A stretch of 64,000 nt of DNA from Pleurocapsa minor GSE-CHR-MK 17-07R (GCA_019359125.1 JAHHHY010000006.1:210030-274029); one strand, 5' to 3'. Positions 44,342 through 64,000 are shown, numbered from the stretch's first letter. Notes: generated from the sequence alone by a model not told the origin. A program made the numbers and translations.

Positions 44342-44439
44342 CAATTGATCTTTAAGGTGAGGTCATGGGCGCGTCCTCGCCCCGGCACGCGGTGCGACCA
44401 GGCTGTGGGGAGTGTGTGGGGCATGAGGGGGAAACACGC

Positions 44440-45555: not shown

Positions 45556-45565
45556 GCGAGGTCGT

Positions 45566-47976: not shown

Positions 47977-48001
47977 CGAAACCGACCTGTACAGGGATGC
48001 C

Positions 48002-50008: not shown

Positions 50009-51454
50009 ATGATTGGTGCACTGCGCCGCTTCGCGCTGCCCGCCTGCCTGCTGCTGATTGGCCTGTTTTACGCGGCGACCTCGCCATTCGCGGTGACGGG
50101 CGGCCACGGCGGCATCGACGGTGCAGAGCTGGCTGTCGCGGCGACACACCTGGGCGTGGCGCATCCGCCGGGCTACGGCCTGTTTGTGGGGCTCAGCGCG
50201 CCGTTTGCCCGCCTGACGCCGTCTGAGCCAATTGCCGGGCTGATGGCCTTTAACGCCGGGCTGGCCGTGCTGTGCTGCGGCGTGCTGGCATGGGCGGCCT
50301 GGCGCGCCAGCGGACGCCTGTCCGCCGGGCTGGTGGCGGCCATCGGGCTGGGGCTGAGCTTCACCTTCTGGTCGCAGGCGATCATCTACGAGACTTACAC
50401 TCTGATGGCGCTGCTGTTCGCGCTGCTGCTGGCACTGGCGCTGACGCGTTCGCGCCCGCCCTGGCTGGTGTTTTTAGCTGGTCATCTGGCCGGCATCGCG
50501 CTCACGCACCACCTGACCGCGCTGGTCTGGCTGCCCGCGCTTCTGATTTTGTCCGGCTCCACGCGCCGCGAGCTGGCCCGCTGGGGGGTCGGCCTGCTGA
50601 CCGGGTTGTGGCCGATCGTGCTGCTGCTGGCGCTGTCCGCGCGCGGCGGCCCGCCAGACTGGGGCGACGTCAGTCATAGCCTGCCGGACTTGTTCGCGCA
50701 TGTGACCGGCCGGGCCTTCGTCGGCTACCTGACGCCCTTCACGCTGGTTGGCTGGCTGAATGCGCTGGCGGGCAGCCTGGCGCTGCTGTGGCGCGACATG
50801 ACCCCGTTTGGGGTCGCGCTGGCCGGGCTGGGCGCGATCCGCGTGGCCGTTATGCCGGGGGGCAGGCGGGCGCTGCTGGCCTTTTTCACCCTGCTGGCCG
50901 GGCTGAGCGCGGTCGCCAGCGTGTATAGCGCTGCCGACACAAGCACGGTCTATCGCCTGCCGGTCACGGTGATGGCGTGCTGGTTTGCCGGGCAGTCGGT
51001 GATGCCTTACCGGCGGCTGGCGGGCATCGGCGCCGCGGCCGCGCTGGCAGCGCTGCTGCTGGCCGCGCACCTGGTGCCGGTCGCGCTTACAGGCGACGCC
51101 TCGCAGGCCGAGTTTGCCGACAGCCTGCGCGATCTGCCGACCGACAGCCTGATCGTCACCGCCGATACCGAGACGACGTTTCGCCTGTGGTATGCCTGCG
51201 ATGCCAGCGCTCTGTGCGGCGATAACTGGCTGGTGCTGAATACCAACCTGATGCAGTTTGACTGGTATGTGCGGCGCATCATGGCCAGCCAGCCGGGGCT
51301 GAGCGCGTATACGCCTGACGACGTGGCGGGCTGGCTGGCGCAGGACGCCTGGCGCGACCGGCCAATCGCCTCAGACCTGGTGTTTTTTGGGCTGCGCGGG
51401 CGCACACAAACGCGCAGCGGCGGCTGGCAGGTCTGGCGCGTCCCGGCTGATTAG
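50009..51454 (+). CDS. DUF2723 / TMEM260-like GT-C membrane protein
   Basis: DGAELAVAATHLGVAHPPGYGL, FWSQAIIYETY, THH. Confidence 0.8.
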   Translation: MIGALRRFALPACLLLIGLFYAATSPFAVTGGHGGIDGAELAVAATHLGVAHPPGYGLFVGLSAPFARLTPSEPIAGLMAFNAGLAVLCCGVLAWAAWRASGRLSAGLVAAIGLGLSFTFWSQAIIYETYTLMALLFALLLALALTRSRPPWLVFLAGHLAGIALTHHLTALVWLPALLILSGSTRRELARWGVGLLTGLWPIVLLLALSARGGPPDWGDVSHSLPDLFAHVTGRAFVGYLTPFTLVGWLNALAGSLALLWRDMTPFGVALAGLGAIRVAVMPGGRRALLAFFTLLAGLSAVASVYSAADTSTVYRLPVTVMACWFAGQSVMPYRRLAGIGAAAALAALLLAAHLVPVALTGDASQAEFADSLRDLPTDSLIVTADTETTFRLWYACDASALCGDNWLVLNTNLMQFDWYVRRIMASQPGLSAYTPDDVAGWLAQDAWRDRPIASDLVFFGLRGRTQTRSGGWQVWRVPAD

Positions 51455-51515
51455 CACGAACCCGCACTATCCACTATAGTTCCAGATAGAGTCACGCATT
51501 TTCAGGGAGGAAACA

Positions 51516-52913
51516 ATGGATGAAGTCTTTCGTCCGCGTTTTGGGTTGAACGCGCGCGCTGTCCTGCTGGCCGCTGGTTTGTCTGCGGCGCTGTGTCTGC
51601 CCGGGCTGGCCCTGTCCGCCCAGGAGGACGTCTCATTTTCTGCCTTTTATGTCGGCCGCACCGACAGCAATCAGGATGGCCTGGTCGACACGAACGATAT
51701 CGCGCTGATCTATGGCGCTACCGATGAGGCGGATGTTCCGCTGTCTGACGCGAGCGTGTCGGTGCGATCCAGCACCATCGCCTATGATACAAACGGCCTC
51801 AGCATGGCCTATACCCATGGTGCCGAGAATGCCATCAGCCTGACCATGGCCCTGGCTGGCCAGGAACCCGTCACTGTGCCGTTGAGCTTGCCTTTACCCG
51901 GCAGACTGGAACTGCACAACGGGCTGGTGATCGTGCATGGCGCCAATGCCGAGCAGATTGCCGAGGTGCAGGTGTTCGACCCCGCCAGCCCGGCCGCGCC
52001 CATTGCGACGCACACCTTTCGCTCTGCCGACACGGCCTCGTCCGTTTCGGCCAGTGGCACCCGGCTGATGGGCTATAACCAGTTTACGGGCGGCCTCAGC
52101 CTGTTCACGCTGCCGGATATGGCCCCGGTCGACTTTGCGCTGGCAGGCTATGCCAGCACCAGCCCGTCCTGGTCCCCCGTGGATGACGTGTTTGCGATGG
52201 GCATCGGCATGATCGATAACCCGAATGATGCGCGTATTGTTCTGGTGGACGGGCAGACAGGCGCCGTGACCGAGTTTGATGTGCCGGAGGATTTCGCGCT
52301 GGGGACGCCAGCCACAATTCGCTGGAGCAATACCGGGCGCTATGTCTCGCTGGACCCGATCAATGACCCGCTCACGGCGCTGTCGGTTGTCGATGTCCAG
52401 ACTGGCGAAGTGGTCTCACTTCGCGTGGATGGAAGCCGGTTGATTGTGCAGGACTGGGCGGCTGATGACAGCTTTATGCTGCTGCTGGCCCAGCCGTCGC
52501 CCGGTGATGGCCCCGAGCTTTCCCTGATGCGCTATACGTTCCCGGATGCCGCACCGGTGGACCTGGTCAGCCCGGAAACGGTGGATTTTAACTCGATTGA
52601 ATGGGCCTCTCAGTCCACCCAGGTGGCCATCGTCGGGCGGGCTGAAGCCAGCGGCCAGACCGGTATTTTCGTCATTGATGCGGCTGCCGACACGCTGACC
52701 CCTCTGTTTGAGACGCCGGAGACGGACCTGCGCGGTGTATTCTGGTCGGGCGATGATGACAGCGTGTACTTCATCGCGCCATCAGGCGACGACCTGTTTT
52801 CGTCTGAGGGGGATCCTACAGCGCTGTACCGCGTGTCTGTGGAAACAGGTGAGGTTGTGCGCGTGAGCGACGAAGGGATTGTCGTGGCTGGCTATCCCAG
52901 TCGCAGGAACTAA
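51516..52913 (+). CDS. Secreted TolB-like beta-propeller protein with N-terminal EF-hand/dockerin-like motif
   Basis: Signal peptide, DSNQDGLVDTND, SPSWSP, IRWSNTG, DWAADD, EWAS, FWSGD. Confidence 0.7.
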   Translation: MDEVFRPRFGLNARAVLLAAGLSAALCLPGLALSAQEDVSFSAFYVGRTDSNQDGLVDTNDIALIYGATDEADVPLSDASVSVRSSTIAYDTNGLSMAYTHGAENAISLTMALAGQEPVTVPLSLPLPGRLELHNGLVIVHGANAEQIAEVQVFDPASPAAPIATHTFRSADTASSVSASGTRLMGYNQFTGGLSLFTLPDMAPVDFALAGYASTSPSWSPVDDVFAMGIGMIDNPNDARIVLVDGQTGAVTEFDVPEDFALGTPATIRWSNTGRYVSLDPINDPLTALSVVDVQTGEVVSLRVDGSRLIVQDWAADDSFMLLLAQPSPGDGPELSLMRYTFPDAAPVDLVSPETVDFNSIEWASQSTQVAIVGRAEASGQTGIFVIDAAADTLTPLFETPETDLRGVFWSGDDDSVYFIAPSGDDLFSSEGDPTALYRVSVETGEVVRVSDEGIVVAGYPSRRN

Positions 52914-52950
52914 AAAAGCCCGGGGGTTCAGACGAATCCCCGGGCCGTTT
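52912..52950. terminator. Probable bidirectional terminator between convergent genes
   Basis: A-tract, GCCCGGGG...CCCCGGGC stem, then CGTTT. Confidence 0.65.
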
Positions 52951-52970
52951 GTTCAAAAAGCGCGATAACG

Positions 52971-53426
52971 TTATGCGCCGCCGGGGCGGATGATCGGCGG
53001 CAGGGTGAAGGTCGTGGCAGCCAGGTTGCGGTAGCCGATGTAGGTGCCGGTGCCTTCGGTGACCAGCGAGAGTACATCGCCGTTGCAGACGCGGCCAGGG
53101 ACGTTCCACAGGCCCTGCTGGCCCTGATTGTCGACCTTGTAGATGGCGATGTCGGTGGCGCAGGTGGCATTGAACAGCGTCTCGGTATTGCCGACCGTCG
53201 AGGTGCGGAAGCCGACGCAGTCATACACAAACAGGATGGCGCTGGTGCCCGGCGCACGGCCAAGCGCGAGCACGTAGGCAAACGCATCGGCCGGGCTTTT
53301 GGCCGTGCAGCCTGCCACGGTGGGGGCGGGTGCGGGAGGAGCAGTCTGGGCCATGACGGCGGCGGGCAGGGTGAGCAAAACGGCGAAACACACCAGAAGC
53401 AACAGGGTGAGCTTTGATTTTTTCAT
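52971..53426 (-). CDS. Small secreted hypothetical protein with 6 Cys in the mature part
   Basis: Signal peptide MKKSKLTLLLLVCFAVLLTLPAAVMA; RBS GGAG. Confidence 0.75.
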   Translation of the reverse strand: MKKSKLTLLLLVCFAVLLTLPAAVMAQTAPPAPAPTVAGCTAKSPADAFAYVLALGRAPGTSAILFVYDCVGFRTSTVGNTETLFNATCATDIAIYKVDNQGQQGLWNVPGRVCNGDVLSLVTEGTGTYIGYRNLAATTFTLPPIIRPGGA

Positions 53427-53539
53427 TGGAGGAACTCCTTTTACAGCACGTGAGCTAAAGCCATTATAGGACGGCGAAAATGTTTGTCAAATCGAATACT
53501 TTCTTTAGATGTTAAAAATAATCGAATGACAGTTTTCTT

Positions 53540-54934
53540 GTGCCCGTCCGACCCAGCGAAATCAGCGCCCTGATGACCCCTCCTCGCTCACCCATTCATG
53601 CCGTTTATCGCAGGCTGCGGCCTATTCTCGCTGATGCCGGGGTGCTGCGTGCTGCCCGGCGCCTGTTACCGCCCCAGCAGCGCGCCCGCCTCGCCCGGCT
53701 GATCGGCCTGCGCGGGTTTGACCCCAGCACGGCGGAAGGGACGCGAACGCCGTCGTGGGCGGGGGAAAGTCGGGAGCCTGATACCATGCCTGCTGCGCCC
53801 GTGGGTGTGAATTATGTGGGCGACCTGCGCGCCGATATCGGCATCAGCGAACATTCCCGGCTGACGGTGGCCGCGCTGCTGGCCGCCGATATTCCCGTGC
53901 GCCTGATCGAATCGGCCTATCGCTTTCACAGCCGCACCGGGCAGGCGATCGAGATTCCGCCGTTTGACCCGCGCGCCCCACTGCCGATCACGCTGATCGA
54001 CAAGAATTTCTCGCATTTTTACGACGCCCTGCAGGATATCCCCCTGGCGGCTTTACAGGATCGTGTCAGAATTGCGCTGTGGGCGTGGGAACTGCCCTCG
54101 TTTCCGGCGCGTTTCCAGCGCAACTTCGCGCTGGTGGACGAGGTGTGGGTGGCCAGCCGCTTCACGCAGGACGGCCTGGCGCTGGCCTCGCCTGCTCCGG
54201 TGGTGCGGATGCCGTTTGGGCTGAATCCCGCGCCGACGCCGGGGATATCGCGGCGCGACTTTGGCCTGCCGGATGACCGCACGCTTTTTCTGACGGCCTT
54301 CAGCCCGGCCAGCACGTTTGCGCGCAAGCATCCGTTTGGCGTGGTCGATGCTTTTGAGCGCGCCTTTGCGGGCATGACGGAGAGCCAGCGCCCGCTGCTG
54401 GTCGTGAAGACGCATTTTCTGGCGCACGACGCTGATGCCGGGGCGGCTGATGCCCTGCGGGATGCCGTGGAGCGCGTCGGCGGGGTTCTGCTGGACGCGC
54501 ATTATGCACGGGCGCGCATGACCGACCTGCTGGCGCTGTGCGATGCGTTCGTGTCGCTGCACCGCGCCGAGGGTTTTGGATTGAACATCGCCGAGGCGAT
54601 GACGCTGGGCAGGCCGGTCATCGCGACCGGCTATTCGGGCAATATGGACTATATGACGATCGCAAACAGCTATCCGGTACGCTTTACCCTGCGCGAGATT
54701 ACCGACGCCGATCATCGCTGGCAGCCGCATCTGGCCGACCTGTATCCGGCGGGCGAGACGTGGGCCGAGCCTGATCTCGACCATGCCGCCGCGCTGATGC
54801 GGGAAGTCTTCGCGGACAGAAATGCGTCCCGTGCGACCGGCCTGCGCGCCGCCAGCGACATGGCGCGCGAGTATCACCCGTCGGTGACCGGGGCTCGCCT
54901 GCGTGCGCGCCTGAAAAGGCTGCTGTCGCGATGA
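53540..54934 (+). CDS. Glycosyltransferase family 4
   Basis: WAWELP, SLHRAEGFGLNIAEAM, ATGYSGNMDY, WAEPDL. Confidence 0.85.
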   Translation: MPVRPSEISALMTPPRSPIHAVYRRLRPILADAGVLRAARRLLPPQQRARLARLIGLRGFDPSTAEGTRTPSWAGESREPDTMPAAPVGVNYVGDLRADIGISEHSRLTVAALLAADIPVRLIESAYRFHSRTGQAIEIPPFDPRAPLPITLIDKNFSHFYDALQDIPLAALQDRVRIALWAWELPSFPARFQRNFALVDEVWVASRFTQDGLALASPAPVVRMPFGLNPAPTPGISRRDFGLPDDRTLFLTAFSPASTFARKHPFGVVDAFERAFAGMTESQRPLLVVKTHFLAHDADAGAADALRDAVERVGGVLLDAHYARARMTDLLALCDAFVSLHRAEGFGLNIAEAMTLGRPVIATGYSGNMDYMTIANSYPVRFTLREITDADHRWQPHLADLYPAGETWAEPDLDHAAALMREVFADRNASRATGLRAASDMAREYHPSVTGARLRARLKRLLSR

Positions 54935-56160
54935 CAACCACGGTCATGGTCTCCGGCGCGCAGGTCGCCTCTGGCGCACGCAGCCGCGTCTTTTTCGCCG
55001 GACAGCTCTTCCTGATTCTGCTGGGCGGGGCGCTGGCCGCCGCCGATGCCAGCATCCGCCTGCCCAATGCCGCCCAGCCGCTGGCCGGACACAGCCGCTT
55101 CGTGCTGGTCCTGCTGGCGCTGGCCGTCGTCATGTCTGCCGCCGCCAGCATCCTGCTGACGCGCCTGGTGAGGGCGCCAGAAGCAGCGACACAAAAGCGG
55201 ACGGCCTTTCTGGCGGCGGGCTGTGCCGCGCTGGCGACAGCCGCTGGCGGGCTGATCGCGCTGGGCGGGGCATGGCTGGCGCCGCTGGGCTATTTCGTGC
55301 TGGCCAGCCTGTTCATCAGCCTGATCGTGCTGGTGTGGACGCCCGATGGCGGCACCAACGACACGCATCGCGTGCTGGCGGGCTATCTGCGCGGCATCTG
55401 GAAATACAGGCTGCTGCTGCGCATCTGGACGGTGTACAACATCCGCTCGCGCTACAGCCAGACGGTGCTGGGCATCCTGTGGATCGTGCTGCTGCCGCTG
55501 AGCACCGCGCTGGTGCTGTCGTTTCTGTTCGCGCAGATCACGCATCCGGGCGACATCGGTAATGCGCCGTTTATCTCGTTTTTCCTGACCGCGCTCACGT
55601 TCTGGGGCCTGTTTTCCAGCGGCGTAAACATGGGCGTGCGCGCGCTGCTGGGCAGCATGGGGCTGATTAACCAGGTATATTTCCCGCGTGAGGTGCTGAT
55701 TCTGGTGCGCTTCTGCGAGGAAATCGTCGACCTCAGCTTCACGGTGGCCACGCTGCTGATCGTCAACGCAGTGGTGGGCATCTGGCCGAACGCGTGGTAT
55801 GTCGCGCTGCCGCTGGTGGTGCTCATCCAGATGACGCTGACGCTGGGGGCGATGTTTCTCGTCAGCTATACCAGCGTGCTCATCCGCGACGTGCCCCAGC
55901 TCATCGGCGTGCTGTTACAGCTTTTTTTCTACCTGACGCCGATTATCTACCCGGTGCAGCGCACGCCCGAACAGCTTCAGTGGCTGACCTTCATTAATCC
56001 GCTGGCCAGCCTGATCGACGCCTACCGGCGCATCATCGTGTACGGCGAGGCGCCCGTGCTGACGAACCTGCTGTATCCGGCCGTGTTCGCGGTCATCCTG
56101 CTGTTTGCCGGCTTCATGAGCTTCAAGAAGTTCGAGAAGCATATCTCCGATTACAAGTAA
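54931..56160 (+). CDS. wzm: ABC-2 polysaccharide export permease with an extra N-terminal 4-TM domain
   Basis: IRSRYSQTVLGILWIVLLPL, LINQVYFPREV, FFYLTPIIYP, NPLASLIDAYR. Confidence 0.85.
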   Translation: MTTTVMVSGAQVASGARSRVFFAGQLFLILLGGALAAADASIRLPNAAQPLAGHSRFVLVLLALAVVMSAAASILLTRLVRAPEAATQKRTAFLAAGCAALATAAGGLIALGGAWLAPLGYFVLASLFISLIVLVWTPDGGTNDTHRVLAGYLRGIWKYRLLLRIWTVYNIRSRYSQTVLGILWIVLLPLSTALVLSFLFAQITHPGDIGNAPFISFFLTALTFWGLFSSGVNMGVRALLGSMGLINQVYFPREVLILVRFCEEIVDLSFTVATLLIVNAVVGIWPNAWYVALPLVVLIQMTLTLGAMFLVSYTSVLIRDVPQLIGVLLQLFFYLTPIIYPVQRTPEQLQWLTFINPLASLIDAYRRIIVYGEAPVLTNLLYPAVFAVILLFAGFMSFKKFEKHISDYK

Positions 56161-56174
56161 GAGGGACGAAACGC

Positions 56175-56993
56175 ATGTCGCAGCTTCCCGTGCTGCCGGT
56201 CATCGAGGTGAACGGCGTGGGCAAGGAATTCGTGCAGCACCAGCAGCTTCCCAGCCTGCGCGCCGAGGCCACGCAGCTCATCAAACGCTGGGTGGGGCTG
56301 GCGAAGCCGCTGCCGCATGAGACCTTCTGGGCCCTGCGCGACGTGAACTTTCGCGTGCAGGCGGGCGAAAGCCTGGGCATCGTGGGGGCAAATGGCGCGG
56401 GCAAGAGCACGCTCATCCGCATGCTGGCCAATATCATCGCGCCAACGACCGGCGAAATCATCGTGCGCGGGCGCTTTTCGGCGCTGATCGGCCTGTCTGC
56501 CGGATTCGACGCGATGCGCACGGGCCGCGAGAATATCTACCTGAACGCGGCGATTTTTGGCCTGACACGCGGCGAAATTGAGGGCCTGCTGGACGAGATC
56601 ATCGCCTTTGCCGAGATTGGCGAGTTCATCGACCAGCCAGTGAAATACTATTCCAGCGGCATGCTGGCGCGGCTGGGCTTCAGCGTGGCCGTGCACTTCC
56701 TGCCGGAAATTATCATGCTGGACGAGATTCTGGCGGTGGGCGACATGGCCTTCCAGCGCAAATGTTATGCGCGCATGCAGCAGTTGCGCGGCAGCAGCAC
56801 CATGATCCTGGTGATGCACAGCGGCGCGACCATCCGCGATATGTGCGACCGGGCGATCTGGCTGCATAAGGGGACGGTGGCGATGGATGGCCCCAGCGGT
56901 GACGTGGTGGACGCGTACGAAGCGTTCAACCATGTGCGCCACGACGATGCCGCTGCGCACGCGCTCGATACGCCCGACTTTCTGGCGCCCTAG
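56175..56993 (+). CDS. wzt: ABC polysaccharide export ATPase without C-terminal binding domain
   Basis: FWALRDV, GANGAGKST, YSSGMLARLGF, LDEILAVGD. Confidence 0.9.
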   Translation: MSQLPVLPVIEVNGVGKEFVQHQQLPSLRAEATQLIKRWVGLAKPLPHETFWALRDVNFRVQAGESLGIVGANGAGKSTLIRMLANIIAPTTGEIIVRGRFSALIGLSAGFDAMRTGRENIYLNAAIFGLTRGEIEGLLDEIIAFAEIGEFIDQPVKYYSSGMLARLGFSVAVHFLPEIIMLDEILAVGDMAFQRKCYARMQQLRGSSTMILVMHSGATIRDMCDRAIWLHKGTVAMDGPSGDVVDAYEAFNHVRHDDAAAHALDTPDFLAP

Positions 56994-56999
56994 TCGGCC

Positions 57000-58817
57000 T
57001 TACGCCTCGTCCAGCGTGGGCTGGGCGCTGATGCGGATGTCGCGCACGGCCACGCCCAGCAGGCGGATATCCGGGCTTTCCGGGATGCGCTCGCGCGGGG
57101 AGGCCACATGCGGCACGTCCAGCGTCAGCGTGACGATGCGCCCGGGGTCGCTGACGGCGATCGTCCATTCGGCGCACAGCCAGCCCGCCAGCCCGTGGCG
57201 GGTGCCGCGCACCAGCCGCAGCGGCTGCCCGTCGATGCTTACGCGCAGGCCGTCAATCTGGCCCTCGTCCATCGCCGCATGCAGGTCCAGCTCGATCAGG
57301 AATGACTTTCCGGGTGGCAGCGCCAGCGCGACCGTGCTGCGCGTCGCCGGGCCGGTCCAGGCGAAGGGCTGCCCGTCCTCGCCGTGTTCCGGGTCATACC
57401 AGCCATCGGCCAGCGCGGGCGGCTGATGCACCCAGTCCAGGCGTGCCACGGCCTGGCCTTTTTGCAGGCGCGCCACCAGCGCATCCAGCCGGGCAAACGA
57501 GGCCGTTGGCAGCAGCGGCGCGGGCGTGCTGCGGACAGGCCGCAGGCGCACATGGCTGACGGCGATGCCCAGCTGGCGATTGTCTGTGCTTTCGGGGTTC
57601 AGCTCCTGCGGGGAGTAGGTGCGCTCGACCTCAAAGCCCAGCTCGATGACAGGCACGCCGTCAATCTCGATAATCGCCTCCGCTGGAATGCGCCCGGTGA
57701 GGATGTAGCGGGGCGGTTTGAAATAAGGGTCTTTGACTGTAACGTGTTCGAGCAGATTACCGTTGGCAGTCAGTTTCAGCGAGTCCATCAGCCACGGGCG
57801 GATGCACATCGGGATATTGATCTCAAACCAGTGGTCATCGTGCGCAGGCACAGCAAAATACAGATTCGAATATGTTCCCGGCCCCGACCAGATGAAATAT
57901 TCCCAGGCTAACTGTTCTCTGGAAATCCAGTTTTTTCCGAGGACGGGGTCGCTGGCAGCGAAATCGACCTGCTGGCTTTGTGCAGGTTTCATTGTCTGAT
58001 GGCTGGCCGCGTTCGACGGTGTGCGCGCGATTTGCGCCAGCAGGTGATAACGTCGAATGCTTGCCTTCTGCTTTTTCAGAATATCTGTCGCCTGACGATA
58101 TAGAGCAATATCGACCTGATTTTTTGCTTCTATCCTGCGGATTGTTTCCGGGCTGACATCGCTGACACGCAGGCGGTTTTTGGTCACATTAGTTTTGACC
58201 GTTTCCTCAAATGTGAACCAGTTGAACCGCTGGCACATCACATCGAGGAAGGTGTTAAAGTCCTCCACAGTTCCGACAGCCTCTATAGTTTCTAGATTGC
58301 GCGATGCAGTCTGCCACAGTTCGTCGTCGCTGATGTTGTATTCGCGCCTCCAGCCCAGGCTGTGGGCCAGTCGCGCCGCCTGTGAATTATTGACCTCATC
58401 CCATACATCGGGAAAGTCAGACTCGATGAATTCTTCCAGCGGCAGCATGACCTGCTCCGGCACACTTTCTTCAACTTCTATCCCGTTAATGACCACGATT
58501 TCGGGCTTGGCCTGAAAATTGTCATGCCAGTAGCTGTAGTTGGACAGCACGCGTTCTACTGGATCCCGTAGCACAGTGATGATATTCGGTTTCTGAGGAA
58601 AGTAGTGCACAAACTGGTAATCAAAGTGTCCCAGAAAGAGCTTGTATTTATGAATCTCCAGCTTAGGGGTTTGCTGAAGCACCTGAATGCGGTCGATCGG
58701 GAAAATATCCTTCACTGCAAACCTGAATTTCAGCATCTCGCGCAGGGATGATCCCGCTGTTTTTGGCAGATGCAGAAAGTAATACTGGGATGAAGACATA
58801 ACTGTGTTCTGACCCAT
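57000..58817 (-). CDS. Sulfotransferase (Sulfotransfer_2-like) with two C-terminal beta-sandwich modules
   Basis: FLHLPKTAGSS (5'-PSB) and LRDPVERVLSNY (3'-PB); repeated W...E...WSGP/WTGP...R.LG.AV modules. Confidence 0.8.
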   Translation of the reverse strand: MGQNTVMSSSQYYFLHLPKTAGSSLREMLKFRFAVKDIFPIDRIQVLQQTPKLEIHKYKLFLGHFDYQFVHYFPQKPNIITVLRDPVERVLSNYSYWHDNFQAKPEIVVINGIEVEESVPEQVMLPLEEFIESDFPDVWDEVNNSQAARLAHSLGWRREYNISDDELWQTASRNLETIEAVGTVEDFNTFLDVMCQRFNWFTFEETVKTNVTKNRLRVSDVSPETIRRIEAKNQVDIALYRQATDILKKQKASIRRYHLLAQIARTPSNAASHQTMKPAQSQQVDFAASDPVLGKNWISREQLAWEYFIWSGPGTYSNLYFAVPAHDDHWFEINIPMCIRPWLMDSLKLTANGNLLEHVTVKDPYFKPPRYILTGRIPAEAIIEIDGVPVIELGFEVERTYSPQELNPESTDNRQLGIAVSHVRLRPVRSTPAPLLPTASFARLDALVARLQKGQAVARLDWVHQPPALADGWYDPEHGEDGQPFAWTGPATRSTVALALPPGKSFLIELDLHAAMDEGQIDGLRVSIDGQPLRLVRGTRHGLAGWLCAEWTIAVSDPGRIVTLTLDVPHVASPRERIPESPDIRLLGVAVRDIRISAQPTLDEA

Positions 58818-58818
58818 G

Positions 58819-61800
58819 CTAATCCCCGTGCCCGTGTGCTACCTGCTGCTCCAATTGAAGCAGGCGCTGCACCAGCGCGTGATAGTTAGCATTCATATCT
58901 GCATGCACGCTCTCCATGCTGGTAGCAAACTGGTCGGCTATGGCGCCCCGCAAACCATCCGTCTCAGACAGTAAAATATGCTGTAATTCGCGCGCGATAT
59001 CGGCCACGCTGAACTGCTGCTGTGCCATTTGCGCTGCTAGCAGCGTCAGCCTGTCTTGTGTGGTCTGGCTAAGTGTCGACATCTGCTGCGTCATTAACGT
59101 CAGACTGTCTTGCGTGCTTTCGCTCAGCGCCGATATGTGCTGCGTCAGCAGTTCGTCGAAATCTTCCACCACAGCCTTCAGTTCCGCCGACGCATTCTCG
59201 ATCTGTATTGCCAGTTCCTCGCGGGTCGCGGCGATGTGATCGTGAACGATATCCAGCTCTGCCTGATGATGGTCACGCGTCGTCTCCAGGCTGTCCAGGC
59301 GCGGCCAGATGCTCCCTTTCACCTCCACTTCCAGCCCGCTCACCAGCTCCTCGCTGGCCTGTGCCTGCATCTGGGCTGTCGCGGCGGAACCCGCCAGCGC
59401 GGCCATTTGATGCAGCATGGCGCGGTGCAGGTGCATCTGCGCGGCTTCCAGGCGGCCCAGGTTCAGCACGCGCACGACGATGCGGTACAGATAGCCCAGC
59501 ACCGGAATGCGGCGCATGAAGCGGCTCAGCCGCGTGTCGGTGTCGCGCAGGCGAATGGCGTCCCAGTCGGCAAAGGCCTGCTGAAGCGCGTCGATGGACG
59601 CATGTGTCGTGTCTGCCTGCGAATAGCTTGGACTGCCGGTCATAGGCGAAACCTGTCGTTTGGGCATGGGGAACGCGTCGGAAGAGCGGGTCAGCGCATG
59701 CTGATAGTGGCGTTTGCGGGCCGCCTGGCGGGCAATTTCAGCCGGGGCCTGCCGGGCAACCTGCGATAAGGTTTCCTTGAGCACGTGCGCAACCGCCGAC
59801 ATGCTGTGTTCATCGCGCAGGTGAGCGGCTGCGGCCTCTCCGATCTGGCGGGCGCTTTCCGGCTGCTCAAAAACTTTCCGCATCAGCCCAGCGGCGGCAT
59901 CCAGATCAGGCTCTGCCCACATGGCGCTGCCGCTGGCATACAAGGCCTCGTGCGATTCCTGATAGCGGTGCTGCTCGCGGGCGACGGCCGCAAAGCGAAA
60001 AGGCACAGGATAGCTGTTTTCCGCGGTCATGAAGTCCATATTGCCAGACCAGCCCGTGGCGATGACCGGCTTGCCCAGCGCCATCGCTTCCGCCATGCCC
60101 AGCCCCAGCCCCTCCGAGCGATGCAGCGAGACATAGCAGTCGCACCGCGCAATCAGCCCGTACATCTCGTCTCGCGAAAGCTGATCCAGCATCAGCTTGA
60201 TGGGCCAGCCGTGGATACGCCGCTTGATGGCGTCCAGCAGCGCCGGAAAATGATCCAGATGATGCGCTTTCAGAATCAGCAGCGGCCGTTTTGATGCAGG
60301 CAGGTCGCGATAGGCTTTCTGGAAAGCATCGATCACGCCGAACGGGTTTTTGCGTGCGCTGGAGCCAAGCGCGCTGAAGCTGAATAAAAACGTGTATTTG
60401 TCTGTCGGCCAGTCGAAAAAATGCGGGCGCGGCAGCGTCACGACGGGCACATCCAGCGGCAGCGGCACATGGCGCACGGGGATGGGCGACACAGACTGCA
60501 GATTCGCCTGCACATAGCGCGTCGCCACCCAGATTTCATCCAGCCCTGCAAACGCATCCTGCCAGTCCGGCGGAAGCTGGGCCAGCTCGTAGAACCAGTA
60601 GCCGATGTTATAGGCCTGGCTGGCATCCAGTTGTTCGGTCGCATTGAATTTGTCGAATTCCGGCGCGTTCAGCATGAAAATGCGCACCGGATATGCAGCG
60701 CCCGCAGGCGGCGGTGGAAACATCGTCGCCCGAAACAGCGGATCATACGGATACTCGGTGTAGTCCAGCGGGACGCCCAGCGTGCGCAGCGCCGACACCA
60801 GCCCGCGCGCCGCCTGGCTGAGGCCGTTGTCCACATGCAGGTCACCGACGATGGTCATGCCTTCGATGGGCGATACGGCCGCTGGCACGGGCAGTCTGGC
60901 ACAGGTCTGAATCTGAGACAGATAGTGTTTCGCCACGAGCGGCCATGCGGCCTGCTGAGCATACTTGTACGCCTCTTCACGCGCCTGCTGCACTTTCTCG
61001 TGCGTCAGGCCGGCCAGCAGCGCCGTCAGTGTGGGCGCTTCGCCGTCGTCGACCGGCACGCGCCAGCAGAAGCTCTCCGGCAGGTCGGCATACTGGGGCT
61101 GGTCGCTGGTGATGACCGCGCATCCCGCGCCCAGCGCGCGCATGATTGTCCCGGACGTTTCGCCCGTCGTCGGGTGGCGCAGATTGAGGAAGATATCGAC
61201 TCCCTGAAGCAGGTTCTCAAAGGTCTCGAAATCTGTTTCGCCCAGCCAGGTCACCTGTTTCCCAACCGGGCCTTCAAGGATGTCCCGTTTCAGGCGCTGT
61301 GCATATTCCGTCTGATCGTATCCCACGACCAGCAGTCGTGTTCGCTGGAATCGTGTGGGAGCGGTGGAACGCAGTTTTTTCAACGCATTCACTATGGATT
61401 CTATGCGCTTGTTGGCCTGAATGTTTCCAAACACGCCTAGCACCAGGTCGGATTCGCCTGCGTGAAGCGATGCGCGCACCTGCTGTCTGGTGGCGATATT
61501 CCGGCTCGGATGGGCGCCGCTTGGAATGACCGACACCTGCACAGCGGGGTCATAGCGGCGCAGATGCTCGGCACCGAATTGCGAATGCACGATGATGTGC
61601 CCGGCATGGTCGGTGATGCGGCGCAGCATATGGTGTTCGAGATAATCGGTGCTTTTGCCGCCGAAAAACCGCTCGGTCAGCGATTCCGCCGCGCCGCTGC
61701 CATGCTGGTAGGTCATTTCGTCGCGCATGCGCACAGGCCGGCCGCGATGCTGATACAGGAACGAGTAGAACCCCCACAGCGACAGGTCATGCAGCACGAC

Positions 61801-63399
61801 GATGCCGCGTTCGCGCTGGAGCTGGTCGTGAATTTCCTCGTGGAATGCGCAATTGTTGCCCATGTGATAGACATGCACATCCACCGGCGGCACGCGCCCG
61901 GCGGCGTAATCGGCGTAGCTGTACACGCGCACGCCGTCGATCGGTGTCGCGGTTGCTTCCGGCGCGGTGATGACCGAAAACTGCATGCGCGGCGCGGCGG
62001 CGGTCAGCGCGCGCAGCAGATCCATGCTGTAATCGCTGATGCCGGAGGCCAGCGGCGGCAGCGGCGTCCACATCGCCACATGCAGGTCGTCGCGGAGAGG
62101 TTGCGCGGGCATGGGCGGGGCAGGCTGTGGCGCTGGCGCAGGGGCGCTGTCCAGCACGACCGGCGCGGGTTGGCCTTTGCCGCGTGCGAAAGCATAGGCC
62201 ATGCGCGTCCCTTCGCTCAGCCCGGCCTCGGTGAAGCGCGCCGCACTCGCCAGGCCCAGCGCGCGCTGCTGTTCATGCAGCGCATCGTCGGTCAGCAGCG
62301 CGGCAAAGGCCTCTGCCACCTGCGCCGGATTGCGCGGGCGCACTTTCAGCCCGGCGTCCCCGGCCACTTCGCGGCTGGCGCCGTAGTCGGTCACCACCAC
62401 GGGCGTCCCGCACGCCATCGCCTCTGCGATCGGCAGGCCAAAGCCCTCGGCCAGCGAAATGTGCGCCACCAGCCGCGCATGCTGATACAGCGCCGCCATG
62501 GTCGCATCGTCGGTCTTGCCCGTCCACGCGATCTGCCCGCTGATGCCCAGCGCCGCGGCCAGGTCATGCACGTCCTGCGGGACATCCCCGGCAGTCACCA
62601 GCGCGGAGATGACGAGCTGGGTGCGCCCGCGCAGCGCGGTGGGCAGGGCGGCAAAAGCGCGCAGCAGGCCAGAAATATTCTTGTTCTCGCCAAAGCCGGT
62701 CACCGCGAAGATGTAGCGCCCATGAATGCCCATGCGCCGCAGCGAGGCCGGCAGCAGCGCGGGCGACTCGACGAGGGGCGCAAAAATTGGTTCAGGGAAC
62801 GGACTGGCGACGAATACGCGCTCTGGTGCCACGCCCAGCACATCGCTCATATCGCGGCGCGTGGCTTGTGAATTCGCGACGACCGCGCTGGATGCGCGCA
62901 TCAGCATCAGCGCATCGGAGTAGGCCCACATCGCATCCATGTTCGCCGCCAGCGCGCCCGGCGACCGGAACGGAATCAGGTCATGGGCAGTCATGACCAG
63001 CGGCGGTCCTTCCCACGAGCGCGGGGTGTGGTAATAGCCGATGTCATCATAGACGGGCAGGTGCAGGGCGTCGAAGGCATGGCGGCGCGCAAAGTCGTGC
63101 AGGCCGCGCGTATACACGATTTCATCCCGCTTGCGCCAGGTATCGTCTTCGGTAATCAGCCCGGCCGCGTCAAAGTCGAGCGGCACGACCCGCGCCCGGC
63201 CCGTGTGCCGCTGCACGAGGTCGTAGATATCCGCCAGCGGCCCGCTGATCGTGTCCGTGAGCTGATGAAAGAGCAGGAAATCGTCGCCTGGTTCAGGATG
63301 CGCCAGCAGGGCCTTAATGAGCTGGCTGGTCAGCCTGCCCATGCCGCGCAGGGCAGAGCCGCCCTGCAGCACGGAGATGTCGATGCCTGTACGAGCCAT
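58819..63399 (-). CDS. Multidomain glycosyltransferase (three GT4 domains plus C-terminal coiled coil)
   Basis: SLAEGFGLPIAEAMACG; NLRHPTTGETSG; HRSEGLGLGMAEAM; heptad-rich tail. Confidence 0.9.
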   Translation of the reverse strand: MARTGIDISVLQGGSALRGMGRLTSQLIKALLAHPEPGDDFLLFHQLTDTISGPLADIYDLVQRHTGRARVVPLDFDAAGLITEDDTWRKRDEIVYTRGLHDFARRHAFDALHLPVYDDIGYYHTPRSWEGPPLVMTAHDLIPFRSPGALAANMDAMWAYSDALMLMRASSAVVANSQATRRDMSDVLGVAPERVFVASPFPEPIFAPLVESPALLPASLRRMGIHGRYIFAVTGFGENKNISGLLRAFAALPTALRGRTQLVISALVTAGDVPQDVHDLAAALGISGQIAWTGKTDDATMAALYQHARLVAHISLAEGFGLPIAEAMACGTPVVVTDYGASREVAGDAGLKVRPRNPAQVAEAFAALLTDDALHEQQRALGLASAARFTEAGLSEGTRMAYAFARGKGQPAPVVLDSAPAPAPQPAPPMPAQPLRDDLHVAMWTPLPPLASGISDYSMDLLRALTAAAPRMQFSVITAPEATATPIDGVRVYSYADYAAGRVPPVDVHVYHMGNNCAFHEEIHDQLQRERGIVVLHDLSLWGFYSFLYQHRGRPVRMRDEMTYQHGSGAAESLTERFFGGKSTDYLEHHMLRRITDHAGHIIVHSQFGAEHLRRYDPAVQVSVIPSGAHPSRNIATRQQVRASLHAGESDLVLGVFGNIQANKRIESIVNALKKLRSTAPTRFQRTRLLVVGYDQTEYAQRLKRDILEGPVGKQVTWLGETDFETFENLLQGVDIFLNLRHPTTGETSGTIMRALGAGCAVITSDQPQYADLPESFCWRVPVDDGEAPTLTALLAGLTHEKVQQAREEAYKYAQQAAWPLVAKHYLSQIQTCARLPVPAAVSPIEGMTIVGDLHVDNGLSQAARGLVSALRTLGVPLDYTEYPYDPLFRATMFPPPPAGAAYPVRIFMLNAPEFDKFNATEQLDASQAYNIGYWFYELAQLPPDWQDAFAGLDEIWVATRYVQANLQSVSPIPVRHVPLPLDVPVVTLPRPHFFDWPTDKYTFLFSFSALGSSARKNPFGVIDAFQKAYRDLPASKRPLLILKAHHLDHFPALLDAIKRRIHGWPIKLMLDQLSRDEMYGLIARCDCYVSLHRSEGLGLGMAEAMALGKPVIATGWSGNMDFMTAENSYPVPFRFAAVAREQHRYQESHEALYASGSAMWAEPDLDAAAGLMRKVFEQPESARQIGEAAAAHLRDEHSMSAVAHVLKETLSQVARQAPAEIARQAARKRHYQHALTRSSDAFPMPKRQVSPMTGSPSYSQADTTHASIDALQQAFADWDAIRLRDTDTRLSRFMRRIPVLGYLYRIVVRVLNLGRLEAAQMHLHRAMLHQMAALAGSAATAQMQAQASEELVSGLEVEVKGSIWPRLDSLETTRDHHQAELDIVHDHIAATREELAIQIENASAELKAVVEDFDELLTQHISALSESTQDSLTLMTQQMSTLSQTTQDRLTLLAAQMAQQQFSVADIARELQHILLSETDGLRGAIADQFATSMESVHADMNANYHALVQRLLQLEQQVAHGHGD

Positions 63400-63442
63400 G
63401 TCATCCCCCGGGCGACCGCACAATCAGATAAGTGGAATAGCG

Positions 63443-63493: not shown

Positions 63494-64000
63494 TCAGCCG
63501 CCCAGCTCTGCCAGGCGGTTCTGGATCGCTTCCGGCACGTTGGACAGGCCAACCGCTGCCGCATACTGTGTGTAGGCATTCAGCGCCTCGGCGCGATTGC
63601 CCGCTGCAAAATGCGCGTTGCCCAACACAAGTAAATTCTCGGTATCATTGGGTGCCAGTTCCACTGCCCGTTGGGCATCGGCAATGGCTTCTTCCAGCTC
63701 ACCTGTTGCGATGAAATATCGAGCACGTTCCTGGTAAAGGCGTGGACTTTCGGTGATGTTAATGCCGGTTGTAATTGTAGCAATCGCTGCCTCAATATTG
63801 CCAGCAAGATTCTGTGACGCACCTAGATTGATATAGCCGCCCACGAAATTTGGATTGATCGTTAGCGACTGCTCGTAGTCGGCAATCGCCAGCTCGAATT
63901 CCCCCATGCCCTGATAGACGAAGCCGCGGTCGGCATAAAGGCCGAAGTTGTTCGGTTCAAGGTCGATAGCCGCTGAGAAGCTACCAATCGACAGGTCGTT
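63494..64000 (-). CDS. TPR-repeat protein (5' end beyond the window)
   Basis: Frame stays open to the window edge; YADRGFVY, YINLG, YQERARY, LVLGNAH repeats. Confidence 0.85.
   Translation of the reverse strand, partial: NDLSIGSFSAAIDLEPNNFGLYADRGFVYQGMGEFELAIADYEQSLTINPNFVGGYINLGASQNLAGNIEAAIATITTGINITESPRLYQERARYFIATGELEEAIADAQRAVELAPNDTENLLVLGNAHFAAGNRAEALNAYTQYAAAVGLSNVPEAIQNRLAELGG

What the first reader, a model, noticed from the sequence alone, without database searches (positions are those of the whole stretch)
53540..63399. ABC-exported glycan pathway in which a sulfotransferase may be the chain modifier or terminator
wzm/wzt converge on a sulfotransferase with two CBM-like modules and on a triple-GT4 polymerase-like protein ending in an amphipathic segment (LSRFMRRIPVLGYLYRIVVRVL) plus a long coiled coil. 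In E. coli O9a, WbdD uses a coiled-coil ruler and caps chains with phosphate/methyl. Here no methyltransferase or kinase is seen in the locus, so sulfation may fill that role, giving a sulfated surface glycan. Caveat: this Wzt lacks the C-terminal cap-recognition domain.
Basis: partly seen in the sequence, partly recalled or inferred. Interest (0 to 1): 0.55.

Follow-up and report, generated by a model that had tools for sequence, protein, structure and literature searches.

The report
Sulfated envelope polysaccharide locus, Chloroflexota

Summary
Two convergent operons lie at 53540-63399. One encodes a GT4-like transferase, a Wzm with four extra N-terminal membrane segments, and a short Wzt without a Wzt_C domain. 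The other encodes a three-module GT4 protein tightly coupled (1-19 nt) to a sulfotransferase.

The sulfotransferase carries the PAPS-binding motifs. Its model matches heparan sulfate 6-O/2-O-sulfotransferases (Z 19/17). It also has two homologous CBM35/22-like beta-jelly-rolls.

The GT4 protein ends in a conserved Arg-rich amphipathic motif followed by about 150 acidic helical residues. Their hydrophobic period is 3.65, not the heptad 3.5.

The same gene set, rearranged, forms one operon in another genus of the family. The genome has APS kinase, TagA/WecG and LCP ligases, but no LpxC.

Best reading: a cytoplasmically sulfated envelope polysaccharide exported by a TagGH/Wzm-Wzt-type transporter, with sulfate as a chain decoration. 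The terminator/ruler idea is not excluded but lacks support: there is no Wzt cap-binding domain, the stalk geometry differs from WbdD, and known ABC-exported sulfated polysaccharides are sulfated on repeat units.

I class it as a new variant of a known kind, of moderate interest.

The parts
53540..54934 (+). Single-module GT4-like glycosyltransferase (464 aa) with an Arg-rich N-terminal extension of about 88 aa. Candidate adaptor or primer transferase.
   Evidence: Glycos_transf_1 E=4e-8. It is 40% identical to module 3 of the large GT. The L045 operon has a 42% identical homologue. It overlaps the wzm start by 4 nt.
54931..56160 (+). Wzm-type ABC-2 permease (409 aa) with four extra N-terminal hydrophobic segments.
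   Evidence: PF01061 E=6e-11 and NF050109 Wzm/RfbD E=1.5e-14. Hydrophobic peaks lie at about 20-44, 58-76, 93-111 and 117-135, ahead of the ABC-2 core. The same pattern occurs in the L045 Wzm (47% identical) and is absent from the genome's other Wzm.
56175..56993 (+). Wzt/TagH-type ABC ATPase (272 aa) with no C-terminal carbohydrate-binding domain.
   Evidence: ABC_tran residues 54-185. Best NCBIfam matches are TagH (1e-56) and galactan Wzt (6e-49), both below their cut-offs. No PF14524 hit.
57000..58817 (-). Sulfotransferase-CBM-CBM protein (605 aa; the database form starts at M7 = 58799).
   Evidence: Pfam Sulfotransfer_2 scores only E=2.7e-3, below the gathering score. Relatives found at E=6e-59 pass it. 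AF2 mean pLDDT is 84.8.
58023..58796 (-). Sulfotransferase catalytic domain (residues about 8-265).
   Evidence: The motifs HLPKTAGSS (5'-PSB), GH64 and RDPVERVLS (3'-PB) are nearly invariant in 83 relatives. VIA gives Z=19.0 to HS 6-O-sulfotransferase 5t03 (230 residues aligned, rmsd 3.6) and Z=17.3 to HS 2-O-sulfotransferase 3f5f. Foldseek 4ndz/5t05 give E about 1e-6.
57528..57977 (-). Beta-jelly-roll module 1 (residues 281-430), CBM-like.
   Evidence: Z=9.7-11.2 to a xylan-binding module, CBM35 and CBM22. W297, W310, G312-P313, N352, R414 and G417 are conserved. No Pfam family matches.
57018..57455 (-). Beta-jelly-roll module 2 (residues 455-600), a paralogue of module 1.
   Evidence: 28% identity to module 1, E=2e-15. 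The model shows a beta-sandwich at pLDDT about 77-89.
58819..63399 (-). Three-module GT4 glycosyltransferase with a C-terminal anchor motif and helical tail (1526 aa from M9). Candidate polymerase.
   Evidence: Glycos_transf_1 in three stretches, E=1e-49. PDB sequence hits are MshA, PimA and WaaG. Orthologues P0162 (86% identical) and P0163 exist. No TM helix.
59413..59568 (-). Conserved Arg-rich amphipathic motif (residues 1286-1337, core R-I-P-V-x-G-Y-x-x-R-x-x-V-R-x-x-N-L-G). Inferred peripheral membrane anchor or docking helix.
   Evidence: It has the highest hydrophobic moment of the tail and net charge +5. It is the best conserved tail block in orthologues. It recurs at the C-terminus of other GT4 proteins in family genomes: L044, L045 and L046.
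58831..59277 (-). Acidic helical stalk (residues 1383-1531) containing a 54-bp (18-codon) tandem repeat at 59044-59147.
   Evidence: AF2 predicts helices 1383-1467 and 1473-1531, pLDDT 55-67. The hydrophobic period is 3.65, reached by 0 of 500 shuffles. Net charge is -17. TRF finds period 54, 1.9 copies. P0162 carries one more copy.
57650..59250 (.). Low-GC recombinant cassette spanning the sulfotransferase catalytic domain, most of beta module 1 and the last ~140 codons of the GT.
   Evidence: GC is 0.47-0.57 here against 0.63-0.73 in the flanks. Identity of the sulfotransferase to P0003 jumps from 25-65% (residues 1-370) to 90-98% (residues 376-605) at the same point.

Best explanation
The five genes form a cytoplasmic assembly, sulfation and export line for a cell-envelope polysaccharide in a bacterium without LPS.

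Inferred sequence of events:
1. A polyprenyl-phosphate primer is made by transferases encoded elsewhere in the genome (Bac_transf, Glycos_transf_4 and TagA/WecG homologues).
2. The single GT4 protein and the three-module GT4 protein extend the primer at the inner face of the membrane. The GT4 proteins are held there by their Arg-rich amphipathic segments.
3. The sulfotransferase, translated from the same message as the polymerase, uses its two CBM-like jelly-rolls to stay on the nascent chain. It O-sulfates sugars along the chain with PAPS.
4. Wzm/Wzt exports the finished lipid-linked polymer. This Wzt lacks a carbohydrate-binding domain, so export is not gated by a terminal cap.
5. Outside the membrane the polymer is probably attached to the wall by an LCP ligase or stays lipid-linked. 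It would serve as a phosphate-free anionic wall polymer.

Shown here: gene content, domain folds and motifs, operon coupling, conserved synteny, and PAPS capacity. Inferred: the substrate, the position of the sulfate, the role of the stalk and the final attachment.
For: - Pathway type: an ABC-2 permease and a Wzt/TagH ATPase sit next to four GT4 catalytic modules.
- Sulfotransferase identity: the 5'-PSB lysine, His64 and the 3'-PB Arg/Ser are nearly invariant in 83 relatives. His64 aligns with the catalytic-loop GH of HS2ST. The fold matches at Z=19/17 to HS6ST/HS2ST, both of which sulfate internal residues of a polymer. 37 of 41 long relatives pass Sulfotransfer_2.
- Soluble enzyme: no TM segment was found. 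APS kinase is present in the genome.
- Glycan-binding modules: two CBM35/22-like jelly-rolls.
- Functional linkage: the GT stop and the sulfotransferase start are 1 nt apart. The same five functions form one collinear operon in another genus, with TagA/WecG alongside (L045).
- Orthologue pairs P0003/P0162 and P0002/P0163 share contig sizes, 13316 and 6537 bp.
- No cap gating: Wzt lacks Wzt_C, while a second Wzt in the genome has it.
- Envelope context: no LpxC in a 98% complete genome, four LCP ligases, and a TagA/WecG plus Bac_transf pair on the same contig.
- Precedent: the sulfated capsule of Cobetia marina has Kps ABC export and an in-cluster sulfotransferase (PMC11766843). Cyanobacterial ABC-type clusters with sulfotransferases have been noted (PMC8205485).
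Against: - The query itself scores below Pfam's gathering score for Sulfotransfer_2 (18.3 vs 22 bits).
- No acceptor, donor or product is known.
- Sulfotransferase+beta homologues in four same-genus or same-order genomes are not next to Wzm/Wzt within the sequence available. The family is therefore not tied to ABC export.
- No initiating transferase, nucleotide-sugar gene or PAPS gene lies in the locus itself.
- The position of the sulfate (internal or terminal) was not tested.
- Wall attachment through LCP is inferred only from the presence of those genes in the genome.
Confidence: 0.55

Rival explanations
1. The sulfotransferase caps the non-reducing end and stops polymerisation. The helical tail of the polymerase acts as a ruler that sets where the cap is added. 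This would be a sulfate-based analogue of WbdD in E. coli O9a or WbbB in Klebsiella O12.
For: - The polymerase and sulfotransferase genes are 1 nt apart and conserved together.
- The tail has long helices and an acidic stalk that would point away from the membrane.
- An 18-residue repeat in the stalk varies in copy number between orthologues.
- The distal stalk and the sulfotransferase catalytic domain lie in one recombination cassette.
- No methyltransferase or sugar kinase is in the five genes.
- In homologues L044 and L045 the stalk ends in an extra globular domain of about 150 aa, so a stalk tip can carry a module.
Against: - Wzt has no cap-recognition domain, unlike the cap-dependent O8/O9a/O12 systems as I recall them.
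- The stalk follows the anchor motif instead of separating the anchor from a catalytic domain, and in this protein it carries no domain at its tip.
- The hydrophobic period is 3.65, not heptad.
- The closest structural relatives, HS2ST and HS6ST, act on internal residues.
- Two polymer-binding CBM-like modules suit travelling along a chain.
- L045 has both the extra tip domain and a sulfotransferase, so the sulfotransferase is not simply a substitute for a missing tip domain.
Confidence: 0.1
2. The sulfotransferase acts on another acceptor, such as a glycolipid, the lipid-linked primer or a different glycan. Its position next to the polymerase reflects cassette insertion rather than a shared product.
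For: - The catalytic half of the gene sits in a low-GC cassette of foreign origin.
- Homologues in related genomes lie in non-ABC contexts, next to HAD hydrolases, PMT-like GT-C proteins or an ammonium transporter.
- A second sulfotransferase domain sits in an unrelated 1387-aa ORF elsewhere in the genome.
Against: - Synteny with Wzm, Wzt and GT4 genes is conserved in another genus although gene order is rearranged and identity is only 25%.
- The start is 1 nt after the polymerase stop.
- The C-terminal CBM modules are 90-98% conserved with the orthologue alongside the GT, so they stay with the locus while the catalytic half varies.
Confidence: 0.15
3. The assembly line is the same, but the product is a protein-linked glycan (S-layer or surface-protein O-glycan), as in the ABC-dependent S-layer glycan pathway of Geobacillus stearothermophilus. 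It would not be a wall-linked or lipid-linked polymer.
For: - A TMEM260/PMT-like GT-C (50009-51454) and a secreted propeller-like protein (51516-52913) lie just upstream.
- That pair is conserved in the genus next to proteins carrying the same beta module (L027, L028).
- GT-C genes also neighbour other sulfotransferase genes.
Against: - PMT/TMEM260-type GT-Cs, as I recall, use polyprenyl-phosphate monosaccharides rather than PP-linked polymers.
- No Wzy_C/WsaB-type O-oligosaccharyltransferase was seen in the genes scanned.
- A strong terminator hairpin at 52918-52945 separates the propeller gene from the locus.
- The L045 operon has TagA/WecG, not a GT-C, beside it.
Confidence: 0.15

Closest known systems
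E. coli O9a polymannose O-antigen system (WbdA polymerase, WbdD kinase/methyltransferase ruler, Wzm/Wzt with CBD)
   Same: Both use Wzm/Wzt export. Both have a multi-module GT4 polymerase without TM helices, membrane association through amphipathic helices, and a long helical element in the machinery.
   Different: This genome has no LPS (no LpxC). Wzt has no CBD. There is no kinase or methyltransferase terminator. The helical region is part of the polymerase, follows the anchor motif and has a 3.65-residue period rather than a heptad one. The modifying enzyme is a sulfotransferase with CBM-like modules.
Sulfated capsular polysaccharide locus of Cobetia marina KMM 1449 (PMC11766843), and the ABC-type clusters with sulfotransferases noted in cyanobacteria (PMC8205485)
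   Same: A cytoplasmic sulfotransferase is encoded with GTs and an ABC exporter, and the product is PAPS-dependent. This is the same general kind of pathway.
   Different: Those are diderm Kps-type (KpsMT/KpsSC/KpsDE) or cyanobacterial systems, with PAPS genes in the cluster. Here the exporter is a Wzm/Wzt-TagGH-type in an LPS-less Chloroflexota genome. The sulfotransferase is fused to two CBM-like modules, and the polymerase has the anchor-plus-stalk tail.
Wall teichoic acid / secondary cell-wall polymer pathway of monoderms (TagO-TagA primer, cytoplasmic polymerase, TagGH export, LCP ligation)
   Same: The Wzt's best family matches are TagH. TagA/WecG lies beside the syntenic operon in L045 and next to the GT+tail gene in L044. 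LCP ligases are present. The predicted product is an anionic polymer.
   Different: The charge would come from sulfate esters on a polysaccharide, not phosphodiester repeats. There is no TagB/TagF-type CDP-glycerol transferase. The link to LCP is inferred only.
Heparan sulfate 2-O- and 6-O-sulfotransferases (Sulfotransfer_2 clan)
   Same: Fold (Z 17-19), the 5'-PSB and 3'-PB motifs, and the catalytic His in the same loop.
   Different: Identity is about 17-21%. This enzyme is bacterial and cytoplasmic, has no Golgi membrane anchor, and carries two C-terminal beta-jelly-roll modules absent from the animal enzymes.

Membership tests
ABC-transporter-dependent glycan pathway (Wzm/Wzt, TagGH type) | ABC-2 family permease adjacent to its ATPase | tested here: met
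   PF01061 E=6e-11 and NF050109 E=1.5e-14 for the permease. ABC_tran E=4e-17 and TagH/Wzt NCBIfam 1e-56/6e-49 for the ATPase (below the equivalog cut-offs). The genes are 14 nt apart.
ABC-transporter-dependent glycan pathway (Wzm/Wzt, TagGH type) | Cytoplasmic glycosyltransferases that build the whole chain; no Wzx/Wzy in the locus | tested here: met
   Four GT4 catalytic modules without TM helices. None of the ORFs scanned in 42.8-63.4 kb matched a flippase or polymerase family. Polymerase activity itself was not tested.
ABC-transporter-dependent glycan pathway (Wzm/Wzt, TagGH type) | Polyprenyl-phosphate initiating transferase | tested here: inconclusive
   None in the locus. Four Bac_transf and three Glycos_transf_4 genes lie elsewhere in the genome. 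Which one serves this locus is unknown.
O9a/O12-type terminator-ruler chain-length control | Wzt C-terminal carbohydrate-binding domain that recognises the cap | tested here: not met
   This Wzt is 272 aa with no PF14524 hit. The model does detect a Wzt_C in another Wzt of this genome.
O9a/O12-type terminator-ruler chain-length control | Coiled coil separating a terminating catalytic domain from the membrane anchor or polymerase | tested here: not met
   The domain order is GT1-GT2-GT3, anchor motif, then helical stalk ending at the C-terminus with no tip domain. The period is 3.65 and there is no heptad signal.
O9a/O12-type terminator-ruler chain-length control | A non-reducing-end modification that stops elongation | not testable with these tools
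   Requires glycan chemistry or enzyme assays.
PAPS-dependent carbohydrate sulfotransferase (Pfam Sulfotransfer_2 clan) | 5'-phosphosulfate-binding loop (P-K-x-x-G-S/T) and 3'-phosphate-binding R-x(7)-S | tested here: met
   LPKTAGSS at 17-24 and RDPVERVLS at 84-92. K19, G22, R84 and S92 are at least 90% conserved in 83 relatives.
PAPS-dependent carbohydrate sulfotransferase (Pfam Sulfotransfer_2 clan) | Catalytic base His in the loop before the 3'-PB motif | tested here: met
   G63-H64 is nearly invariant. It aligns with the GH of HS2ST in the phmmer alignment. That this His is the catalytic base of HS2ST is from my own knowledge.
PAPS-dependent carbohydrate sulfotransferase (Pfam Sulfotransfer_2 clan) | Family HMM score above the curated cut-off | tested here: not met
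   18.3 bits against a cut-off of 22 for the query. Homologues linked at E=6e-59 to 1e-24 pass it (50.7 and 72.6 bits; 37 of 41 long relatives). The L045 orthologue scores 36.1 bits.
PAPS-dependent carbohydrate sulfotransferase (Pfam Sulfotransfer_2 clan) | Sulfotransferase fold | tested here: met
   VIA Z=19.0 (5t03, 230 residues aligned, rmsd 3.6) and Z=17.3 (3f5f), well above the next classes at about 11. Model pLDDT is about 90 in this domain.
Carbohydrate-binding module (CBM6/22/35-like beta-jelly-roll) | Beta-jelly-roll fold | tested here: met
   Z=11.2 (7ehg), 9.9 (2w5f), 9.7 (CBM35 4qb1 and 2w46) and 9.0 (CBM22 4xuo) over residues about 280-430. The second module matches at Z 8.5-9.2. 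These values are only modestly above background for beta-sandwiches.
Carbohydrate-binding module (CBM6/22/35-like beta-jelly-roll) | Sugar binding | not testable with these tools
   Conserved Trp297 and Trp310 are compatible with binding but prove nothing.
Wzt_C (PF14524) relationship of the beta modules | Sequence or profile similarity to Wzt_C | tested here: inconclusive
   No Pfam hit even at E<=10. hhalign of an 82-sequence module profile against a two-sequence Wzt_C alignment gives probability 0.2%. No Wzt CBD appears among the top 50 VIA rows. A distant relative, P0010, is a sulfotransferase fused to a true Wzt_C.

The most novel reading that the evidence does not exclude
The sulfotransferase docks on the acidic, hendecad-type stalk that projects from the membrane-anchored polymerase. 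It sulfates the non-reducing end once the chain reaches the stalk tip, which ends elongation. This would be a sulfate-based molecular ruler working without a cap-reading Wzt, in a phylum without LPS. The variable 18-residue stalk repeat and the swappable sulfotransferase cassette would then tune chain length and cap chemistry.
Probability: 0.08. Interest if true: 0.8.

Novelty: new variant of a known kind. Interest (0 to 1): 0.42.

Why it matters
Little is known about what the non-peptidoglycan envelope layers of Chloroflexota are made of. They have been suggested to be polysaccharide or protein (PMC13319060). This locus gives a concrete, testable candidate: a sulfated polymer made by a teichoic-acid-like export route. 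That would be a phosphate-free way to make an anionic wall.

The sulfotransferase plus jelly-roll architecture is also common but uncharacterised. It has 6599 cluster representatives at E<=1e-3, and most of the top 150 cover both domains. Characterising one member would annotate many. It could also supply bacterial, soluble polysaccharide sulfotransferases for making sulfated glycans.

The domain-cassette mosaicism shows how such loci diversify.

Tried and rejected
The contigs of the close orthologues P0002/P0163 and P0003/P0162 could therefore not be read. Their co-location is inferred from equal contig sizes only.
- The search for related loci failed to fetch orthologous loci. In genome contigs it gave one 65-residue match. 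The two metagenome scans gave nothing. The alignment query had no conserved stretch to search with.
- The tail has no relatives outside its three-member clade by word-indexed search. The ESM Atlas gave only sub-threshold leads for the tail and nothing for the L045 tip domain.
- A link between the beta modules and Wzt_C was not detected.
- Pfam on the tail gave only weak coiled-coil or apolipoprotein-type noise.
- One genome search hit for the tail, L047, proved to be translation factor IF-2 and was discarded.
- The genome's CBD-bearing Wzm/Wzt pair on contig C5 was examined as a possible comparator with a terminator. It is flanked by sugar-catabolism genes, with no GTs or terminator.
- The adjacent Ser/Thr kinase-TPR gene was considered as a WbdD-like kinase and rejected. 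It is a standard Pkinase domain (E=3e-32) and is absent from the syntenic operon.
- Literature searches for a sulfotransferase acting as a chain terminator found nothing.

Full report
**Anatomy**

The region holds two convergent operons.

On the + strand:
- A 464-aa GT4-like transferase at 53540-54934.
- A 409-aa ABC-2 permease at 54931-56160, overlapping the transferase by 4 nt.
- A 272-aa ABC ATPase at 56175-56993.

On the - strand:
- A protein with three GT4 modules. The longest ORF is 58819-63423; the form on record starts at M9 = 63399.
- A 605-aa protein at 57000-58817, whose ATG lies 1 nt after the GT stop.

The two operons meet with 6 nt between stop codons and no terminator hairpin. 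Pfam and NCBIfam confirm the GT4, ABC-2 and ABC_tran assignments. They also show that the ATPase stops right after the nucleotide-binding domain, with no Wzt_C.

**The sulfotransferase**

Pfam alone is marginal: Sulfotransfer_2 scores E=2.7e-3, below the gathering score. Four other lines of evidence agree that it is a sulfotransferase.
- An exhaustive phmmer search found 6599 cluster representatives at E<=1e-3. Most of the best 150 are 400-450 aa and cover query residues about 10-428, that is, the catalytic domain plus one beta module.
- These relatives pass the Pfam sulfotransferase models: 37 of 41 long ones, best E=5e-26.
- In an 83-sequence alignment the nearly invariant residues are H16, K19 and G22 (5'-PSB loop), G63-H64, and R84, P86 and S92 (3'-PB). 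The weak phmmer hit to HS 2-O-sulfotransferase aligns exactly this GH...RDPxxRxxS stretch.
- The AF2 model (pLDDT 84.8) matches HS 6-O-sulfotransferase at Z=19.0 and HS 2-O-sulfotransferase at Z=17.3. Other sulfotransferase classes score about 8-11 (Foldseek agrees).

Residues 281-430 and 455-600 are paralogous beta-jelly-rolls (28% identity, E=2e-15). They resemble CBM35, CBM22 and CBM6-type modules at Z 9-11 and belong to no Pfam family. I could not link them to Wzt_C. A distant relative, P0010, is a sulfotransferase fused to a true Wzt_C.

The protein has no TM segment, and the genome encodes APS kinase.

**The polymerase-like protein**

It has three GT4 modules: residues 9-415, 446-850 and 851-1225. 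A Pro/Ala linker separates the first two. Module 3 is 40% identical to the stand-alone GT. The tail has three parts.

- *A conserved, Arg-rich amphipathic block (1286-1337).* It has net charge +5 and the highest hydrophobic moment of the tail. It is the best conserved part of the tail among orthologues. A related motif (RIPVxGYxxRxxVRxxNLG) ends or follows other GT4 proteins in genomes of the same family (L044, L045, L046). I read it as a peripheral membrane anchor or docking helix. This is inference.
- *A short conserved block, KGSIWPRLDSLETTR.*
- *About 150 acidic residues (net -17) predicted as two long helices at low confidence* (pLDDT 55-67). Their hydrophobic period is 3.65 residues (0 of 500 shuffles reach that power), with essentially no power at 3.5. 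The region is therefore hendecad-like rather than a classical heptad coiled coil. Its oligomeric state is unknown. It contains a 54-bp tandem repeat, and orthologue P0162 has one more copy.

**Conserved linkage**

In G167, a different genus of the same family, one strand of contig C57 (L045) carries these genes in order:
- a 1141-aa protein with GT modules like 1 and 3 plus the tail motif;
- Wzm (47% identical, with the same four extra N-terminal hydrophobic segments);
- Wzt (48% identical);
- a homologue of the stand-alone GT (42% identical);
- a sulfotransferase plus jelly-roll protein (25% identical, E=2e-35; Sulfotransfer_2 36 bits).

A divergent TagA/WecG gene lies beside them. The gene order differs from the window, so the association is maintained and not merely inherited. 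This is the strongest evidence that the sulfotransferase works on the product of these GTs and this transporter.

By contrast, sulfotransferase+beta homologues in four closer genomes sit in unrelated contexts. The family was found in only 3 of 400 other Chloroflexota genomes sampled at E<=1e-10.

**Cell context**

- No LpxC is found in a 98%-complete genome, so the product is not an LPS O-antigen.
- The genome has four LCP ligases and a TagA/WecG plus Bac_transf pair 63 kb upstream on the same contig.
- The ATPase's best family matches are TagH.
- The literature suggests that Chloroflexota envelope layers are polysaccharide or protein and notes the lack of BAM and LPS pathways (PMC13319060).

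The most economical reading is a wall- or membrane-associated anionic polysaccharide made by a teichoic-acid-like route. I did not verify the class. The nearest named homologues come from Roseiflexaceae and Chloroflexia MAGs.

**Terminator or decorator?**

- tight coupling of the sulfotransferase to the polymerase;
- a stalk-like element with variable repeat number;
- the absence of a methyltransferase or sugar kinase.

Arguments against:
- This Wzt has no cap-reading domain, though the genome has one elsewhere.
- The stalk is not placed between an anchor and a catalytic domain.
- The closest structural relatives modify internal residues of polymers.
- Two CBM-like modules suit binding along a chain.
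- The documented bacterial case of an ABC-exported sulfated polysaccharide (Cobetia marina) is presented as a sulfated capsule with ordinary sulfation genes, with no mention of capping (PMC11766843).
- ABC-type clusters with sulfotransferases have already been noticed in cyanobacteria (PMC8205485).

I put the terminator model at about 0.1.

**Mosaic structure**

A 1.6-kb low-GC tract (0.47-0.57 against 0.63-0.73 in the flanks) spans the sulfotransferase catalytic domain, most of jelly-roll 1 and the last ~140 codons of the GT. At the same boundary, identity to orthologue P0003 jumps from 25-65% to 90-98%. Within the GT, residues about 610-760 are only 35-45% identical to P0162 amid flanks of at least 95%. 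From their position these residues form the C-terminal half of module 2, which in GT-B enzymes is the donor-binding half. The locus therefore diversifies by domain-sized cassette exchange, as expected for a surface-glycan locus.

**Verdict**

The novelty is a new variant of a known kind. The distinctive points are the Chloroflexota, LPS-less setting, the sulfotransferase with tandem CBM-like modules, the polymerase with an anchor-plus-hendecad tail, and the Wzm with a four-segment N-terminal extension. Interest is moderate.

Noticed in passing
window 57650-59250: A low-GC (0.47-0.57) recombinant cassette covers the sulfotransferase catalytic domain, most of beta module 1 and the distal GT tail. 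Identity to orthologue P0003 switches from 25-65% to 90-98% at the same boundary (about residue 372).
   Followed up: partly
window about 61143-61593 (GT residues about 610-760): The C-terminal half of GT module 2 is only 35-45% identical to orthologue P0162, while flanking sequence is at least 95% identical. This looks like a domain swap that could change donor-sugar specificity.
   Followed up: partly
window 54931-55410 (Wzm residues 1-160): Four extra N-terminal hydrophobic segments precede the ABC-2 core. The topology is conserved in the syntenic L045 Wzm and absent from the genome's other Wzm. Function unknown; possibly a docking site for the polymerase.
   Followed up: partly
L045:4898-5407 and L044:2652-3161: In two homologous GT+tail proteins the helical stalk ends in an extra globular domain of about 150 aa. 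The two copies are 25% identical (E=5e-10), with no Pfam or Atlas match. The window protein lacks this domain.
   Followed up: partly
G000:C1:37396-41559 (L013:9397-13560, minus strand): A second sulfotransferase-like domain (40% identical over the PAPS-binding region) lies within about residues 1130-1340 of a 1387-aa ORF that otherwise has no Pfam match. It sits next to a DUF2142/PMT_2 GT-C membrane protein.
   Followed up: no
G000:C5:441454-443770 (L030:9455-11771): A second Wzm/Wzt pair, whose Wzt does carry a Wzt_C domain, stands alone among sugar-catabolism and solute-uptake genes. No glycosyltransferase or terminator gene is nearby.
   Followed up: partly
window 63494-64000 and beyond (L012:1524-6050, minus strand): A 1508-aa Hanks-type Ser/Thr kinase with a long TPR array ends about 70-95 bp upstream of the GT gene on the same strand. 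It is not present in the syntenic operon of L045.
   Followed up: partly
window 52918-53490: A 12-bp-stem terminator-like hairpin at 52918-52945 follows the propeller-like gene. A perfect sigma-70 consensus (TTGACA-16-TATAAT) lies on the minus strand at 53490-53463, upstream of a 151-aa ORF (52971-53426) with no family match.
   Followed up: no
window 50009-52913; L027:12917-15713; L028:4575-6210: A TMEM260/PMT-like GT-C and a secreted propeller-like protein form a pair conserved in the genus. In two relatives the pair lies near proteins of unknown function that carry the same beta-jelly-roll module as the sulfotransferase.
   Followed up: partly
window 44365-48003: Three further single-module GT4 genes (44365-45555 +, 45566-46786 +, 46756-48003 -) and a DUF4012 gene (48002-49999) lie just upstream. 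The envelope-glycan region is therefore larger than the finding.
   Followed up: no
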